The position numbers and the translations under genes were made by a program. Below the pieces are notes generated by a model. It was not told the origin of the DNA. It was given only the letters and a program-made list of their open reading frames with translations, and did no database searches. Shown here piece by piece: positions 9,888 through 14,597 of a DNA stretch of 39,002 nt; the stretch's first letter is position 1; each line of letters starts with the position of its first letter. This stretch comes from an uncultured archaeon (GTDB taxonomy: Archaea > Aenigmatarchaeota > Aenigmatarchaeia > GW2011-AR5): NCBI GenBank assembly GCA_964363955.1, contig CAYIKG010000001.1:1-39002 (forward strand), given 5' to 3'.

Positions 9888-10748
9888 ATGAAAACGCCTA
9901 TAACTATAATTACTGGCTATCTTGGCAGCGGGAAGACATCGTTGATAAGGCATATCCTTGACAACGCTGACAGGCGATTTGCAGTAGTCATGAACGAATT
10001 CGGCGAGCTCGGTATAGACGGCAAAACCATCAAGGGAAAAAATATCGACATAATCGAGCTTTCTGGCGGCTGCGTCTGCTGCTCCATGAGCGGAGAATTT
10101 GCACAGGCAGTGGATGAGATCGTGGCCTTGCAGCCTGACCATATAATAATCGAAACAACAGGCGTTGTCGATCCAGAAGCTCTCATCTACGATGTCCTTG
10201 AAAACATGCCACAGTTAAAATTAGACAGCGTTGTGTGCGTTGTCGATTCATACGCTGCAGCGAATTACGGCATTGGCCATACGGCACGTAGCCAAATCGA
10301 GATGGCGGACATATTGCTCGTTAACAAAGCCGATCTCATAGACAAAGACAAGATTCTAGAAATTCAAGAGCAATTAGAAAAAATAAACTCGACAGCAGCA
10401 AAAATACGCACCATAAAATGCAGGACAGAACCTGGCCTGATTTTCGGCATGTACACAGAAAAAATTGCGAAACACGGAAAACATGATACAGAAGACGTGA
10501 AAACATTTGTTTTTGCAACTGAAAGAAAAACAGATAAAGTGAAGTTTGAAAATTTCCTGCGTGAAATGAAAGGAGTTGTTCGTGCAAAGGGCTTCGTTGT
10601 CTTAGAGGACAGTTCTTATTTATTCAACTACGTGAACGGCAGGTTTGATTTCGAGAAATTTCCTGCTGAAAAGACCGAGCTTGTATTTATCGGGGAGAAA
10701 TTTGATAAGGAGAAGTTAGAAAAAGACCTAGAAAGCTTATTCAGCTAA
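9888..10748 (+). CDS. CobW/COG0523-family metallochaperone GTPase
   Basis: ITGYLGSGKTSLI (P-loop), GCVCCS metal motif, IIIETTG, LVNKADL. Confidence 0.9.
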   Translation: MKTPITIITGYLGSGKTSLIRHILDNADRRFAVVMNEFGELGIDGKTIKGKNIDIIELSGGCVCCSMSGEFAQAVDEIVALQPDHIIIETTGVVDPEALIYDVLENMPQLKLDSVVCVVDSYAAANYGIGHTARSQIEMADILLVNKADLIDKDKILEIQEQLEKINSTAAKIRTIKCRTEPGLIFGMYTEKIAKHGKHDTEDVKTFVFATERKTDKVKFENFLREMKGVVRAKGFVVLEDSSYLFNYVNGRFDFEKFPAEKTELVFIGEKFDKEKLEKDLESLFS

Positions 10749-11978
10749 AAGCAGTTCTGTATTCTCAAGATACATTATTATTTTGTTTACAAATCTCGCT
10801 GCTTCTGCGCCATCGACAATCCTGTGGTCAAAGCTCAATGACAGCGGCAGGACTTTTCTGGTTCGCGGAATCCCGGCTTTCATAACCACTTTATCTCTTA
10901 CCCTTCCTGTTGCGAGTATTGCGGCCTCTGGTGGGTTTATTATAGGTGTTGCATGAATGCCGCCTATGACACCGACATTCGTTATCGTGAACGTTCCTCC
11001 TTTCAAATCAGCTAGATCAATTTTCCTCTCTTGGGCCCTCCGAGCCAAAGACTCTATTTCCCTTGCTAGTGCATAGATGTCTTTCTGGTCAGCGCCCTTG
11101 ATAACAGGCACGATCAAGCCATCAGGTGTGTCTACAGCAATGCCAATGTTGTAATATTTTTTCAGTATTATCTCTTCATGCTCATCGTCGAGCATTGCAT
11201 TCATGTATGGATGAGCCTGCAATGCCTTTACAACAGCTCTGATGGCATATGGAAGGTATGTAATGTGTATTCCTTTTTCTAATGCCTTTCTTTTTTCCTC
11301 ATTCCTTATTTTATACAATTCAGTCACATCTGCCTCGTCCATATGCGTTACGTGCGGCGCTGTGTAGAATGATTTTGACATGTTTTTTGCTATTGCCTTA
11401 CGCACACCTTTTAGTGGCACGTGTTCGATGTAGCCGTACACATCGTATTTTTTTGTTATTTTTATGGTTGGTGCTTCTTCTTTAGATTCTTCTTGCTTCA
11501 ATGATTGTGCGTATTTTCTCACGTCTTCTTCAGTTATGCGGTTATCACTGCCCGTGCCCTTTACCTGAAATAAATCAACATTAAGTTCACGGGCAAGGCG
11601 CCGTGTTGCAGGTGTTGCGAGTACTTGCGGCTCTTGCCTTTCTATTGCTTTTTTCATCAGAGGCTTTTCAACGTCTGCTGCCTCCTCAAGGTAGCCGACA
11701 GCTCCGGCTGGCTTTACTTCAGGTGTTTTTTCTGTAATTTCTCCAGTATCAATAATAACTAAAACTTCTCCTACCTTTACAGTATCGCCTTCTTTGTGAA
11801 AGATCTTAGAAATCGTGCCGCTCTTCGGAGAAGGCATTTCAACTATGGCTTTGTCTGTCTCGATTTCTGCAAGTATATCATGCTCCTTAACAGCACTACC
11901 TTCCTTAACGTGCCACTTTACTATTTCGCCTTCGGTTATACCTTCGCCAACATCAGGGAATTTAAACTCATAAGCCAT
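10737..11978 (-). CDS. Dihydrolipoamide acyltransferase (E2) of a 2-oxoacid dehydrogenase complex
   Basis: Lipoyl domain (AEIETDKAIVEMPSP), E1/E3-binding domain (ATPATRRLARELNVDL), and catalytic domain with DHRIVDG. Confidence 0.95.
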   Translation of the reverse strand: MAYEFKFPDVGEGITEGEIVKWHVKEGSAVKEHDILAEIETDKAIVEMPSPKSGTISKIFHKEGDTVKVGEVLVIIDTGEITEKTPEVKPAGAVGYLEEAADVEKPLMKKAIERQEPQVLATPATRRLARELNVDLFQVKGTGSDNRITEEDVRKYAQSLKQEESKEEAPTIKITKKYDVYGYIEHVPLKGVRKAIAKNMSKSFYTAPHVTHMDEADVTELYKIRNEEKRKALEKGIHITYLPYAIRAVVKALQAHPYMNAMLDDEHEEIILKKYYNIGIAVDTPDGLIVPVIKGADQKDIYALAREIESLARRAQERKIDLADLKGGTFTITNVGVIGGIHATPIINPPEAAILATGRVRDKVVMKAGIPRTRKVLPLSLSFDHRIVDGAEAARFVNKIIMYLENTELLLAE

Positions 11979-12153
11979 GTAAAAAGTTGTTAAAGATGGT
12001 TTAAAAATCTATTTTGATTTGATCTCCTTCAGGAATTCCTCTATATCTTTCTCTAATTCCTTCTCATCAATATTTATTTTGTATTTCTCAGCTAACCGAA
12101 GCGCAAAAACAAACAGAAGCATCTTCCTGTCATTTATTTTCAGAAACAGTATT

Positions 12154-12213
12154 TATAGCACTGCAAAGGGACTTTGCGTGCTATAAGTGAAGTCAGAATG
12201 ACTTCACATTATA
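12154..12213 (-). terminator. Two abutting near-perfect hairpins at the 3' end of the 12209-13060 ORF
   Basis: 12154-12185: tatagcac(t)gcaaag / gga / ctttgcgtgctata. 12182-12213: tataagtgaagtca / gaa / tgacttcac(a)ttata. Each has a 14-bp stem, one bulged base and a 3-nt loop. They share TATA at 12182-12185, and the second overlaps the stop codon. Confidence 0.5.
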
Positions 12214-13060
12214 ACTTGTATTTCTTCAAAAGCTCTGGAAACGGGAGTTCCACTAGGTCTGATGCAACTTGGGCCAACAGCTCTTGTCTGACCTTTTCAA
12301 TATCAACATTAGCAGAAATTACATCAATTTTCCCTTCTGGAGCAGAACCCCGAACCAGGCGAAACCCATCAAGGGAATTCGCATCCCAGCGCCCAAAGCC
12401 CGCGTCGACGAGCAGGCACCCCCCGGCCTCATCGAGGAGCCAGCCGGACCTGCGACCTACGGCAACGTCATAATGACCTGATGTGCCGTCTAAGCTAGGA
12501 GTTGCGTTAAACCAAAAATGAGTAGTATAAGGATTATGAGGAAAATGTCTATTTTCTATTGTAACTCTCGGAACGCCAAAAACTTCGTCCCATTCAGCAA
12601 CAAGGCGTCCGCCGCCTTCTGGAACCAGAATTTCTCCAACTACTTTGTCCCCTTCGAGTACTTCTCTGATCCAATACTTTCTGCCCAAGACATCTGTTTC
12701 ATACTTACCTGTTTCCCTTCCTTTCGGCACGCGAAGTCTTGTTTCTGTCCGTTGCCAGGCATACCAGCCGTCGTTTTTTCTGCCGAAGAGGTCGTTGAAA
12801 ACTTCTGCTTTTCTCGGGTCATTGCCGGCGCGCTCTAATGCAAGCTGGATAGCAAGCTCTTCGCCAGCTGTAGACATCCTCATGCCTTCTGGAATCTCGG
12901 CTTTAGAATCATAATAATGTTTGCCTGTCCTTACAAGACCTCTTGAATAATTTACATCACCGCCTGCGTGCTTGTAAGCCACTCCAAGCGTTGGATAGAC
13001 GGAACTAACAGCCGGTACAACGAGTCTTTCCTTCAGTTCTGGTAAAGATGCTGTCGCCAT
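12209..13060 (-). CDS. Hypothetical ~283-aa protein (ORFan) inserted between E1beta and E2
   Basis: Long clean ORF. ATG 13060 is preceded by AAGTGA; the alternative GTG at 13069 gives 286 aa. No motif recognised. It contains a GC-rich patch at 12361-12480. Confidence 0.7.
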   Translation of the reverse strand: MATASLPELKERLVVPAVSSVYPTLGVAYKHAGGDVNYSRGLVRTGKHYYDSKAEIPEGMRMSTAGEELAIQLALERAGNDPRKAEVFNDLFGRKNDGWYAWQRTETRLRVPKGRETGKYETDVLGRKYWIREVLEGDKVVGEILVPEGGGRLVAEWDEVFGVPRVTIENRHFPHNPYTTHFWFNATPSLDGTSGHYDVAVGRRSGWLLDEAGGCLLVDAGFGRWDANSLDGFRLVRGSAPEGKIDVISANVDIEKVRQELLAQVASDLVELPFPELLKKYKL

Positions 13061-13328
13061 GAAATTCACTTATATCGTTTAAACCGTAAAGTATTTAACC
13101 TTTACCATCACTGTTTGGTAGCGACTTTCTGATAGTTGATAATTTCCAGATTACATGACTCACGCATTATCGCTGCTTTGATGCGCAATTGGCGATGGCC
13201 AAGACTACGATGTGAAGAAATTGAATTTCTGTCAAGAAACAATTGCTCAGAGAGGGTGCTTTGTATTTTACCCTCTTTTCTTCCAGTTGCTGTTAAGCTC
13301 GTCAAGAATCTGATCGCCCAGCTCATAA

Positions 13329-14297
13329 TTAAAACTTCATTACATCTTCGATGCTTTTATTTATGCGCTCTGCGTTTGGCATATAATTTGCTTCGAGCTT
13401 TGGCAAAGGCACAACAATGTCATAGCCTGTGACGCGCTTCACAGGTGCTTTCAGATAGAGCAATGATTTTTCAGCTATTAATGCTGCAAGCTCTGATGAG
13501 AAGCTGCATGTCCTTTGAGCTTCCTGAACGATAATGGCGCGACCTGTCTTTTGCACAGATTTTATTATTGTCTCTTCATCCAGTGGTGATAGTGTGCGAA
13601 CATCGATGAGCTCTATGCTGTATTTGCTATTTGCAATAACTTCTTTGCACGTGCGCAGCACAGCGCCCCAGCTTATGATTGTGATATCAGTTCCATCTTG
13701 AATAACTTTACATTTAGATAATGGAATTGTATATTCTTCTTCAGGTACTTCTTCCTTTATTGCACGGTAAACACGCTTTGGCTCTAAAAAGACTACTGGA
13801 TCCGGATCGCGTATCGCAGATATAAGAAGGCCCTTTGCTTCGTAAGGTGTTGAAGGCACAACAACCTTGATGCCTGGCGTATGGCAGAAATAAGCTTCTG
13901 GTGAATCACTGTGGTGCTCTAATGCGCGTATGCCTCCGCCGTATGGAACGCGAACAACAAGGGGCACGTGAAAACGTCCTCTTGATCGATTTCTGATACG
14001 ACCTGCGTGATTTATTATCTGGTTGAGCGTGAGAAAAGAGAATCCATCAAATTGTATTTCTGCTATCGGCTTCATGCCATATACAGCTAAGCCAATTGAG
14101 ACACCGGCAATAGCTGCTTCAGCCAATGGCGTGTCAATAACACGGTTATCGCCATATTGCTGCCACAATCCTTCTGTGACGCGAAACACTCCGCCGTTTT
14201 TGCCAACATCCTCGCCCAGCATGATTACTGTACTGTCTTTTGCCATTTCCTGTCTCAATGCCAAATTAATTGCCTGGACCATGTTCATCACGGGCAT
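13329..14297 (-). CDS. 2-oxoacid (pyruvate/branched-chain) dehydrogenase E1 component, beta subunit
   Basis: 322 aa with transketolase-like pyrimidine-binding and C-terminal domains (DTPLAEAAIAG, EIQF.DF). GGTGAT SD motif 3 nt upstream. Confidence 0.95.
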   Translation of the reverse strand: MPVMNMVQAINLALRQEMAKDSTVIMLGEDVGKNGGVFRVTEGLWQQYGDNRVIDTPLAEAAIAGVSIGLAVYGMKPIAEIQFDGFSFLTLNQIINHAGRIRNRSRGRFHVPLVVRVPYGGGIRALEHHSDSPEAYFCHTPGIKVVVPSTPYEAKGLLISAIRDPDPVVFLEPKRVYRAIKEEVPEEEYTIPLSKCKVIQDGTDITIISWGAVLRTCKEVIANSKYSIELIDVRTLSPLDEETIIKSVQKTGRAIIVQEAQRTCSFSSELAALIAEKSLLYLKAPVKRVTGYDIVVPLPKLEANYMPNAERINKSIEDVMKF

Positions 14298-14597
14298 CTA
14301 ATCACCGTCTCCATCAGAATCATAAACTTCGTCTATCATCTCTGCCAGCTCAAAATCCTTTTCAGTAAGCCCGCCTTCTGAATGCGTTGTTATCAAAAAA
14401 GTTATATTCTGGTAAGTGAGAAAAACATCAGGATGGTGGTTAATTTTTTCAGCTACACCTGCAATCTTGTTGAGAAAATTCGTGCCAGCAATAAAGCTGC
14501 CTGTGCTGAACGTCTTTTTTATAGCAATGCCTTCCTTTTTCCAGCCCTCAAGCTTGGCTAATTCGTTTTCTATCTCATTTTCAGATAGCTTCATCAC
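14298..14597 (-). CDS. Pterin-4a-carbinolamine dehydratase (PCD/DCoH)-family protein
   Basis: 99 aa. L..LEGW...I.K.F.F, then AEKINHHPD......ITFLITTHSEGGLTEKD. Its start overlaps the E1alpha stop (ATGTGATG), its stop abuts the E1beta start, and GGAGG lies 7 nt upstream. Confidence 0.85.
   Translation of the reverse strand: MMKLSENEIENELAKLEGWKKEGIAIKKTFSTGSFIAGTNFLNKIAGVAEKINHHPDVFLTYQNITFLITTHSEGGLTEKDFELAEMIDEVYDSDGDGD

What the first reader, a model, noticed from the sequence alone, without database searches (positions are those of the whole stretch)
11979..13328. ~285-aa ORFan with a GC-rich patch inserted between E1beta and E2
- A 1.35 kb segment separates E1beta (stop 13329) from E2 (start 11978), genes that are normally adjacent.
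- It carries one long ORF (12209-13060/13069) with no recognisable motif, preceded by its own A/T boxes and an AAGTGA SD-like motif.
- By hand count, 12361-12480 has 38-39 G+C per 60 nt. A nearby stretch of the same gene has 24 per 60 (12541-12600), and the flanks are AT-rich.
- The patch encodes GRRSGWLLDEAGGCLLVDAGFGRWDANSLDGFRLVRGSAPEG.
- The 3' end is marked by twin hairpins, and 259 nt of apparently non-coding DNA lies on the other side.
- This is either a horizontally acquired passenger or an uncharacterised accessory subunit of the complex.
Basis: partly seen in the sequence, partly recalled or inferred. Interest (0 to 1): 0.6.

Follow-up and report, generated by a model that had tools for sequence, protein, structure and literature searches.

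The report
Orphaned DGR variable-protein gene in operon
The "ORFan" between E1beta and E2 belongs to a small archaeal protein family that relatives rewrite with a diversity-generating retroelement (DGR); its GC-rich patch is the hypermutated variable region, and this genome holds no rewriting machinery beyond a short relic.

Summary
In detail: the 1350-nt segment, the ORF (12209-13060, 283 aa), the GC-rich patch and the twin hairpins are all there. The gene is not an ORFan. It has about 100 homologs, nearly all in Aenigmarchaeota (DPANN) genomes, often several per genome.

In relatives (L007, L030, L031, L035) a homolog is followed by a template repeat (TR) and a DGR-type reverse transcriptase. 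Their TR and variable-region (VR) copies differ almost only at TR adenines.

The window's patch (12356-12466) aligns to those VRs:
- It has 68% GC, 8% A and GC3 of 73%, against 36% GC3 in the rest of the gene.
- Family-wide variation falls on the codons that carry A in the TRs.

The assembled genome (80% complete) has no RT and no TR. A 38-nt relic of the conserved template-RNA leader lies just upstream (13170-13207).

So this is a DGR target gene. It was either orphaned recently or is served by an unassembled cassette. It is not a 2-oxoacid dehydrogenase subunit, and the patch is not foreign DNA.

This is a new member of a known kind. The scan had already found DGR variable regions, and intron-bearing TRs, in other DPANN genomes. 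I reached both independently here.

The parts
12209..13060 (-). Gene for a 283-aa DGR variable (target) protein. No signal peptide or membrane segment is visible.
   Evidence: ORF. The exact 283-aa product is in public collections. 97 homologs, mostly Aenigmarchaeota. Homologs lie next to a TR and an RT in L007, L030, L031 and L035. AF2 model pLDDT 86.5.
12356..12466 (-). Variable region (VR): 37 codons, VAVGRRSGWLLDEAGGCLLVDAGFGRWDANSLDGFRL.
   Evidence: 68% GC, 8% A, GC3 73% against 36% in the rest of the gene. It aligns to the VRs and spliced TRs of L007, L030 and L031. Against the L007 TR, 18/28 A-sites and 17/95 non-A sites differ, Fisher p = 6e-6. Family-wide, columns whose TR codon has A in position 1 or 2 carry 8.8 distinct residues, the others 4.4, p = 3e-5.
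12344..12355 (-). GTTCGGGGTTCT, the conserved 3' boundary of the VR. TR and VR diverge here in relatives, so it is IMH-like. This is inferred.
   Evidence: TR/VR alignments of L007, L030 and L031 lose identity right after ...CGCC/CGTC. The motif also encodes the conserved VRGS, so nucleotide and protein constraint cannot be separated.
12153..12207 (-). Twin hairpins (9-bp and 15-bp stems) starting 2 nt after the stop codon. Probably a 3'-end or terminator structure. They lie about 150 nt from the VR, so they are not the VR-adjacent hairpin of the BPP-1 type.
   Evidence: -32.6 kcal/mol, z = -6.3, 0 of 200 shuffles fold as well.
13070..13126 (-). The gene's own upstream region, with A/T boxes TTAAATAC (13091-13098) and TTTAAA (13078-13083) and AAGTGA (13066-13071).
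   Evidence: 82-88% identical to the stretch just upstream of the closest homologs in L004 and L005. Sequence read. The promoter role is inferred.
13170..13207 (-). Relic of the 5' leader of a DGR template RNA (GTCTTGGCCATCGCCAATTGCGCATCAAAG...). The pairing partner, the TR and the RT are missing.
   Evidence: A profile built from the leaders of L005, L007, L031 and L035 gives nhmmer E = 3.8e-7, the only hit in the 710-kb genome, covering profile positions 8-45 of about 89. In L007 and L031 this leader lies between target and TR and is complementary to GGCCAAGAC right after the TR.
11979..12152 (-). Spacer to E2. TTTTTAAA at 12000-12007 lies 22-29 nt before the E2 ATG, so E2 may have its own promoter and a leaderless mRNA. 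This is inferred.
   Evidence: Sequence. No homology to related loci except one 37-nt match. No Rfam family.
13329..14297 (-). E1beta, the upstream flank of the insertion.
   Evidence: Pfam Transket_pyr and Transketolase_C.
10737..11978 (-). E2 acyltransferase, the downstream flank of the insertion.
   Evidence: Pfam Biotin_lipoyl, E3_binding and 2-oxoacid_dh.

Best explanation
The ORF encodes a variable protein of a diversity-generating retroelement (DGR).

How it works in related Aenigmarchaeota (shown):
- A copy of this gene is followed by a non-coding template RNA gene and a reverse transcriptase. The RNA gene consists of a leader, a template repeat (TR) and a closing stem.
- TR and VR differ almost only at TR adenines. 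This is the signature of adenine-mutagenic reverse transcription followed by replacement of the VR by the cDNA.

What the window shows:
- The 111-nt patch 12356-12466 is such a VR.
- About 18 of its 37 codons are the rewritable ones.
- The invariant W, C, L, V, A, R, G and F codons, which lack A in the templates, form the scaffold.
- The result would be a protein with a hypervariable surface near its C-terminus, presumably for binding. The ligand is unknown (inferred).

State in this genome:
- The cassette itself is not present. No RT and no TR lie in the assembled 80%.
- Only a 38-nt relic of the template-RNA leader remains upstream of the gene.

My reading of that state:
- About 55%: the gene is a recently orphaned 'fossil' target. 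Its VR composition (8% A, GC3 73%) is still as extreme as in live VRs, so the loss is recent.
- About 35%: it is still rewritten in trans by a cassette in the unassembled part.

The gene landed in a variable spot between E1beta and E2 and has no functional tie to the dehydrogenase.
For: Family and cassette:
- 97 homologs, multi-copy, Aenigmarchaeota.
- An RT ORF lies downstream of the homolog in L007 and L030. It matches RVT_1 at 1e-22 to 1e-25 and the PHROG reverse transcriptase family at 2e-97, and carries IGNLTSQ and YLDDF motifs.
- Further adjacent pairs occur at G042:C3 and G174:C22.
- Cognate TR/VR pairs mismatch at 14-16 of 27-30 A-sites and at 2-3 of 78-95 non-A sites.

The window's VR:
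- It aligns to those VRs and TRs.
- A-sites differ at 18/28 against 17/95 for non-A sites, p = 6e-6.
- Composition is 8% A and 68% GC, in the top 0.04% of the window.
- GC3 is 73% against 36% in the rest of the gene, like live VRs (60-81%) and unlike decayed paralogs (43-51%).
- Variable columns across 31 members coincide with A-containing TR codons, p = 3e-5.
- Between the close orthologs L004 and L005 the VR is 66% identical and the rest 86%.

Local relic: leader fragment at E = 3.8e-7.

Fold: the BFVD top hits are phage tail-fibre proteins and one SUMF1-like protein, the class that DGRs usually diversify. They are weak, with best E = 1.4e-3 and probability 0.98.
Against: - No TR and no RT were found in the genome. 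Tested by RVT_1 profile, tblastn with two cognate-family RTs, and blastn with the VR. The defining TR/VR pair is therefore not shown for this copy.
- 11 of 13 sampled genomes with the family also lack a detectable RT.
- No read-level data could be obtained, so present-day diversification is untested.
- 18% of non-A sites differ from the nearest available TR, which comes from another genus.
- Foldseek against the PDB gives no match to any C-type-lectin DGR target, either for the whole model or for the trimmed domain.
- The VR assembled cleanly inside a 39-kb contig, which argues weakly against high population diversity.
Confidence: 0.82

Rival explanations
1. The gene is a live remote target. 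A complete DGR cassette (leader, TR, RT) lies in the unassembled roughly 20% of the genome and still rewrites this VR in trans.
For: - VR A-content (8%) and GC3 (73%) are indistinguishable from cognate VRs of complete cassettes. Clearly decayed paralogs have drifted to 19-22% A and 43-51% GC3.
- Cassettes seem to break assemblies. The contig of the close homolog L005 ends exactly at the leader, just before where the TR should start.
- Several homolog fragments stop inside the VR.
- The genome is only 79.8% complete.
Against: - No RT or TR on any of the 72 contigs.
- The leader relic next to the gene suggests the local cassette was deleted.
- In G042, which has a cassette, only the adjacent copy matches the TR at non-A sites (2%). 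The three dispersed copies mismatch at 9%, 27% and 41%.
- Two metagenome pattern scans found no cognate TR.
Confidence: 0.35
2. The gene is a horizontally acquired passenger, and the GC-rich patch marks foreign DNA of different base composition.
For: - The gene interrupts an otherwise conserved E1beta-E2 junction.
- The patch deviates strongly in composition.
Against: - The deviation is confined to 111 nt inside one reading frame. The rest of the gene has the local GC3 (36%).
- The skew is specifically a loss of A on the coding strand.
- The same patch is GC-rich in all family members whatever the genome.
- Its variable positions follow template adenines.
- The family is restricted to the same archaeal lineage and is absent from viral contigs.
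Confidence: 0.03
3. The protein is an uncharacterised accessory subunit of the 2-oxoacid dehydrogenase or lipoylation system.
For: Besides the window, three other loci place a homolog within 4 kb of lipoate or OADH genes:
- L027: about 2 kb upstream of lipA-E1-E2.
- L016: next to lplA.
- L026: 3.6 kb from a CobW-like gene.
Against: - The positions differ in every case.
- 23 of 27 other loci show no such neighbours.
- 8 relatives have E1beta and E2 adjacent with no insert, and other relatives have different inserts.
- The closest homologs (L009, L004, L005, L008) are in unrelated contexts.
- Several paralogs occur per genome.
Confidence: 0.03
4. The patch is hypervariable through ordinary diversifying selection or gene conversion among paralogs, without any retroelement.
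For: - Most genomes with the family lack a detectable RT.
- Multi-copy families can exchange segments.
Against: - It cannot explain why variation tracks template adenines.
- It cannot explain why synonymous sites of the patch stay GC-rich in a 42% GC genome.
- It cannot explain why non-coding TR copies with A at exactly those sites sit next to RT genes in relatives.
Confidence: 0.05

Closest known systems
DGR variable proteins and RT-less 'DGR fragments' of Nanoarchaeota and DPANN archaea (Paul et al. 2015, PMC4372165; CPR/DPANN set in Wu et al. 2018, PMC5758913)
   Same: - A small archaeal symbiont lineage.
- A target protein with no database homology.
- The VR lies near the C-terminus with adenine-directed variation.
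- Some VR-bearing genes sit at sites without an RT. Paul et al. discuss these as fossils or remotely diversified targets.
   Different: - A different protein family, with no sequence match to anything in Pfam or the PDB.
- Here a relic of the template-RNA leader survives beside the orphan gene.
- The gene sits inside a metabolic operon.
Bordetella phage BPP-1 DGR (mtd VR, TR, bRT, Avd)
   Same: - TR-to-VR information flow with A-to-N changes.
- AAC-rich template codons.
- The VR lies at the 3' part of the target.
- TR and VR diverge at the 3' boundary.
   Different: - No Avd-like gene was seen in the archaeal cassettes I looked at.
- The target is cellular and has no tail-fibre context.
- The window copy has no cassette.
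- The hairpins here lie 150 nt from the VR, not directly after it.
C-type-lectin / formylglycine-generating-enzyme (SUMF1-like) fold, the usual DGR target fold
   Same: By eye, the motifs R-M-S-T-A-x-E-E-L-A, W-Q-W-T-E and D-G-F-R-x-V resemble the FGE-sulfatase landmarks LPTEAEWE, WEWT and GFR. This is a lead from memory. The order of secondary-structure elements fits: strand, two helices, strands, final GFR strand. BFVD hits include tail fibres and a SUMF1-like protein.
   Different: - No Pfam hit in any of 33 members.
- No PDB sequence hit.
- No Foldseek PDB hit for either the full or the trimmed model.
- A four-strand beta insertion sits in the middle of the domain.
Engineered td-intron-tagged TR of BPP-1 (Naorem et al. 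2017, PMC5703328)
   Same: It shows that a spliced TR RNA can serve as the template for a DGR RT. This is the only described parallel to the intron-like inserts I saw in the relatives' TRs.
   Different: That one is an artificial self-splicing group I intron. The inserts here are natural, 15-53 nt long, and shaped like archaeal bulge-helix-bulge introns. None lies in the window.

Membership tests
DGR target (variable protein) gene | Homology to genes shown to be paired with a TR and a DGR RT | tested here: met
   50-62% identity to the targets in L007 and L030, which are followed by a TR and an RT. The gene is in the same tree, sister clade to L007.
DGR target (variable protein) gene | A VR whose differences from a template fall at template adenines | tested here: met
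   Only against TRs of other genomes: 18/28 A-sites against 17/95 non-A sites, p = 6e-6. Family-wide variability tracks A-codons.
Complete DGR (as a system in this genome) | A cognate TR in the same genome, identical to the VR except at adenines | tested here: not met
   No TR-like copy in the 710-kb assembly. The assembly is 79.8% complete, so absence is not proven. Metagenome scans were empty.
Complete DGR (as a system in this genome) | A DGR-clade reverse transcriptase in the genome | tested here: not met
   The RVT_1 profile and tblastn with the L007 and L030 RTs give no hit. The same caveat on completeness applies.
Complete DGR (as a system in this genome) | Present-day VR diversity in the population | not testable with these tools
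The only second assembly (L111) ends before the VR.
C-type-lectin / FGE-like fold | Structural or profile similarity to solved CLec DGR targets or to FGE | tested here: inconclusive
   Foldseek against the PDB gives no hit with E < 0.1. No Pfam or PDB sequence hit. BFVD gives weak hits to tail fibres (E = 1.4e-3, probability 0.98) and a SUMF1-like protein (E = 0.13).
2-oxoacid dehydrogenase complex component | Recurrent co-location with E1/E2 genes, or a domain of the complex | tested here: not met
   No complex domain. Only 1 of 27 other loci is near E1/E2, and at another position. 8 relatives have E1beta-E2 with no insert.
Archaeal bulge-helix-bulge intron (inserts in relatives' TRs, not in the window) | A 4-bp helix flanked by two 3-nt bulges, with cuts that give the VR-length product | tested here: met
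   13 of 17 clean inserts have a perfect 4-bp helix at the rule positions. Control pseudo-inserts average 2.2 (maximum 7 in 300 trials). MFE folds show ((((...hairpin)))) in 11 or more. Splicing itself was not tested.

The most novel reading that the evidence does not exclude
The VR is still being rewritten in trans by an unassembled cassette of the kind seen in the relatives. In that kind, the template repeat is interrupted by two or three bulge-helix-bulge mini-introns that the host tRNA-splicing enzymes must remove before reverse transcription. The window would then show a dispersed, operon-embedded target of an intron-dependent archaeal DGR. The leader relic would mark where a cassette once sat.
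Probability: 0.3. Interest if true: 0.6.

Novelty: new member of a known kind. Interest (0 to 1): 0.35.

Why it matters
- **Composition islands.** A sharply bounded GC-rich, A-poor island inside an AT-rich archaeal gene can be read directly as a DGR variable region, even when no reverse transcriptase is in sight. This helps annotate 'hypothetical' proteins of DPANN genomes.
- **A new target family.** This is a target-protein family of about 150 clusters, missing from Pfam, with a confident predicted fold that has no PDB neighbour.
- **Orphaned targets.** It is a clean example of an RT-less target with a cassette relic beside it. That bears on how often DGR targets outlive their retroelement, or how often cassettes are lost from metagenome bins.
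- **The operon.** The practical point is negative: the inserted gene is not a new subunit. E2 probably needs its own promoter.

Tried and rejected
- Pfam, NCBIfam and PHROGs on the protein and on 33 family members gave nothing.
- A PDB sequence profile search gave nothing.
- Foldseek against the PDB with the full model and the trimmed-domain model gave no hit below E = 0.1.
- An HMMER profile search over 1.8 billion representatives found only the family itself, plus a few repeat-rich giants (TPR, CarboxypepD_reg). I take those as spurious.
- Searches for a TR or RT in the genome by BLAST, profile and tblastn were negative.
- Two metagenome pattern scans for a cognate TR failed. The first was empty. 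The second gave 33 matches, all by chance.
- The viral contig scan found no relative.
- The same-genus genome G205 has no homolog.
- Rfam on the segment gave only sub-threshold noise.
- The bacterial promoter and terminator scan was uninformative for an archaeon.
- The 72-aa ORF at 13108-13326 and a 37-aa ORF in the 3' spacer have no homologs. I do not treat them as genes.
- A 9-nt TR-like word (AGCAACTGG) in the 5' spacer is within chance expectation and was dropped.

Full report
**1. Observation.**

E1beta (13329-14297) and E2 (10737-11978) lie on the minus strand. They carry their expected Pfam domains and are separated by 1350 nt. The segment holds one long ORF, 12209-13069 from GTG or 12209-13060 from ATG. 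The ATG form (283 aa) is the product held in public collections, and homologs begin MATASLPE.

- The stretch 12360-12479 is 64% GC.
- The 109-nt core is 68% GC and only 8% A on the coding strand, against 30% A in the rest of the gene. It is the most extreme stretch of that length in the 39-kb window, in the top 0.04% for both measures.
- The twin hairpins at 12153-12207 are real: -32.6 kcal/mol, z = -6.3.
- An independent 1.6-kb assembly from a groundwater sample shows the same E1beta-spacer-gene order at 98.7% identity.

The one part of the observation that fails is 'ORFan'. The protein has 97 homologs with E <= 1e-3, nearly all from Aenigmarchaeota MAGs, and often two to four per genome. It matches 153 representative clusters in 1.8 billion proteins. 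A 36%-identical paralog lies on contig 4 of the same genome.

**2. What the patch is.**

In the family alignment, the columns encoded by the GC-rich patch alternate between invariant residues (W, C, L, V, A, R, G, F) and hypervariable ones. That pattern suggested a DGR variable region, so I fetched 27 related loci.

In L007 and L030, a non-coding copy of the patch lies 300-500 nt downstream of the homolog. It is followed by an ORF with RVT_1 (1e-22 to 1e-25) and the PHROG reverse transcriptase family (2e-97), carrying IGNLTSQ and YLDDF motifs. A genome-wide search added two more adjacent target-RT pairs, G042:C3 (L031) and G174:C22 (L035).

In the cognate pairs, the non-coding copy (TR) and the gene copy (VR) differ at 14-16 of 27-30 TR adenines but at only 2-3 of 78-95 other positions. 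This is the defining DGR signature.

The window's patch aligns to these VRs and TRs codon for codon.
- Against the L007 template, 18 of 28 A-sites differ but only 17 of 95 non-A sites, Fisher p = 6e-6.
- Across 31 family members, columns whose template codon has A in position 1 or 2 carry 8.8 distinct residues on average. The others carry 4.4, p = 3e-5.
- Between the close orthologs L004 and L005, the VR is 66% identical and the rest of the protein 86%.

The GC-rich patch is therefore the VR (12356-12466) of a DGR target gene. Its GC-richness is the expected by-product of replacing template adenines with random bases on a G/C-rich scaffold.

**3. State of the element in this genome.**

The assembly has 709,874 bases in 72 contigs and is 79.8% complete. 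It has no RVT_1 match, no tblastn match to the two cognate-family RTs, and no TR-like copy of the patch.

The 259-nt upstream spacer nevertheless contains a 38-nt match (13170-13207) to a conserved element. In L005, L007, L031 and L035 that element lies between the target gene and the TR. The match has nhmmer E = 3.8e-7 and is the only hit in the genome. In L007 and L031 the element (GTCTTGGCC...) is complementary to GGCCAAGAC immediately after the TR. It looks like the 5' arm of a stem that closes the template RNA. In the window only the first half survives, with no partner, no TR and no RT, so it is a relic.

The last 57 nt before the start codon are conserved with the closest homologs. I take them as the gene's own promoter region.

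Two lines of evidence pull in opposite directions on whether the VR is still being rewritten.
- *For recent or ongoing rewriting:* its A content (8%) and GC3 (73%, against 36% for the rest of the gene) match the VRs of complete cassettes. Evidently decayed paralogs have relaxed to 19-22% A and 43-51% GC3. Cassettes also seem prone to break assemblies: the L005 contig ends exactly at the leader.
- *For orphaning:* the relic, and the absence of RT and TR. In addition, 11 of 13 sampled genomes with the family lack an RT. Within G042, only the RT-adjacent copy matches the TR at non-A sites (2%), against 9%, 27% and 41% for the dispersed copies.

I put about 55% on a recently orphaned target and 35% on a live remote one. 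Two metagenome pattern scans found no cognate TR.

**4. The protein.**

There is no signal peptide or membrane segment in the sequence. AlphaFold models are confident: pLDDT 86.5 for the whole protein and 87.2 for residues 55-247.

- Foldseek against the PDB gives nothing for either model.
- No sequence profile links the family to Pfam or PDB entries.
- Against predicted viral structures, the best hits are phage tail(-collar) fibre proteins and one SUMF1-like protein. They are weak, with E = 1.4e-3 at best and probability 0.98.
- By eye, the motifs RMSTAxEELA, WQWTE and DGFRxV recall the FGE / C-type-lectin landmarks, and the order of secondary-structure elements fits. That is a lead from memory, not a test.

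I therefore call the fold assignment inconclusive. By analogy with other DGR targets, the protein most likely presents a variable binding surface near its C-terminus. Its ligand and cellular location are unknown.

**5. Relation to the operon.**

- In the same taxonomic family, E1beta and E2 are directly adjacent in 8 loci.
- Four loci have unrelated inserts of 135-800 nt. One of them, in G053, is a 120-aa Cys-rich membrane ORF.
- In at least two loci, E1beta is more than 1.5 kb away from E2.
- None of these gaps holds the target family.

The junction is therefore a variable spot and the insertion is specific to this lineage.

Homologs elsewhere sit in unrelated contexts. Only L027, L016 and L026 have lipoate or OADH genes within 4 kb, each at a different position. 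The window's nearest relatives in the tree are not operon-linked. This rules out an accessory subunit.

An A/T box lies 22-29 nt before the E2 start, and strong hairpins follow the inserted gene. Together they suggest that E2 is transcribed on its own. This is inferred only.

**6. Comparison and novelty.**

DGRs, their orphan-family targets and RT-less 'DGR fragments' are described for Nanoarchaeota and other DPANN archaea (PMC4372165; PMC5758913). This gene is a new member of that known kind. It belongs to a target family not yet in Pfam, and a cassette relic lies beside it.

The scan had already reported a GC-rich island that turned out to be a DGR VR in another DPANN genome, and a cassette with a related target. 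I reached the same reading independently before looking those up.

**7. Seen in passing.**

In all 13 DGR loci of this phylum that I aligned, the TR carries one to three extra segments of 15-53 nt that the VR lacks. Seventeen have clean flanks.
- 13 of the 17 have a perfect 4-bp helix flanked by two 3-nt bulges at exactly the positions where cutting would give the VR-length product. Control pseudo-inserts average 2.2, with a maximum of 7 in 300 trials.
- One insert (L030, 20 nt) is not a multiple of three, so it cannot be carried into the gene.
- They look like archaeal bulge-helix-bulge introns removed from the template RNA before reverse transcription.

I found no paper holding both terms. 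The nearest precedent is the engineered td-intron TR of BPP-1 (PMC5703328). Earlier agents of this scan reported the same on other genomes. None of this lies in the window, and splicing was not tested.

Noticed in passing
L007:11090-11340; L030:11130-11320; L031:880-1130; also L032-L034, L036-L040, L042: The template repeats of DGRs in this archaeal phylum carry 1-3 inserts of 15-53 nt that are absent from the VRs. 13 of 17 clean inserts fit a bulge-helix-bulge intron (4-bp helix, 3-nt bulges), with cuts that yield the VR-length product. Controls average 2.2 of 17. This suggests that the TR RNA is spliced before reverse transcription. The scan has already reported this on other genomes.
   Followed up: partly
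L007:10870-10964 and 11325-11340; L031:700-787 and 1120-1137; L035:976-1058; L005:11094-11171: A conserved leader element (GTCTTGGCC...GCCNNTTGCRCATCA) lies upstream of the TR. It is complementary to GGCCAAGAC just after the TR and right before the RT start. It looks like a closing stem around the roughly 400-nt template RNA. The L005 contig ends exactly at this leader.
   Followed up: partly
L092-L110 (E2 loci of family relatives); L027:5573-5933: The E1beta-E2 junction is a variable insertion point. The genes are adjacent in 8 relatives. Four relatives have 135-800-nt inserts of other content, including a 120-aa Cys-rich membrane ORF in G053. In at least two, E1beta is more than 1.5 kb away.
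   Followed up: partly
G000:C4:18798-19445 (L002:1411-2160): A second, 36%-identical paralog in the same genome (249 aa). Its VR-like patch is also A-poor (9% A, GC3 78%) but diverges at scaffold residues (W to Q). It has no DGR parts nearby and lies next to a ThiI-like gene.
   Followed up: partly
L027:138-668; L016:10001-10678; L026:10001-10771: Three other family members lie within 4 kb of lipoate or OADH cluster genes (lipA-E1-E2, lplA, and a CobW-like gene), each at a different position. This is more than I would expect by chance, but the loci may share ancestry. It remains unexplained.
   Followed up: no
window 14298-14597 (-): A pterin-4a-carbinolamine dehydratase (PCD/DCoH) gene sits between E1alpha and E1beta: Pfam 7e-29, NCBIfam equivalog 6e-31. 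It is a second non-canonical gene inside the same operon.
   Followed up: no
L111:1-1621 (ENA ERZ1292623, Hain_H51_01um contig): An independent low-coverage assembly from groundwater carries the same E1beta-spacer-target arrangement at 98.7% identity and ends before the VR. It points to the likely habitat and to a sample whose reads could test VR diversity.
   Followed up: partly
L024 (CAZSPA010000041.1): A homolog lies on a 5.9-kb contig whose record is titled Candidatus Saccharibacteria. All other members are archaeal, so this is probably a binning error.
   Followed up: no
window 12021-12134 (-): A 37-aa ORF (MLLFVFALRLAEKYKINIDEKELEKDIEEFLKEIKSK) sits in the spacer before E2. Its 'EKYKI' recalls the family's C-terminal KKYKL. 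It has no detectable homolog.
   Followed up: partly
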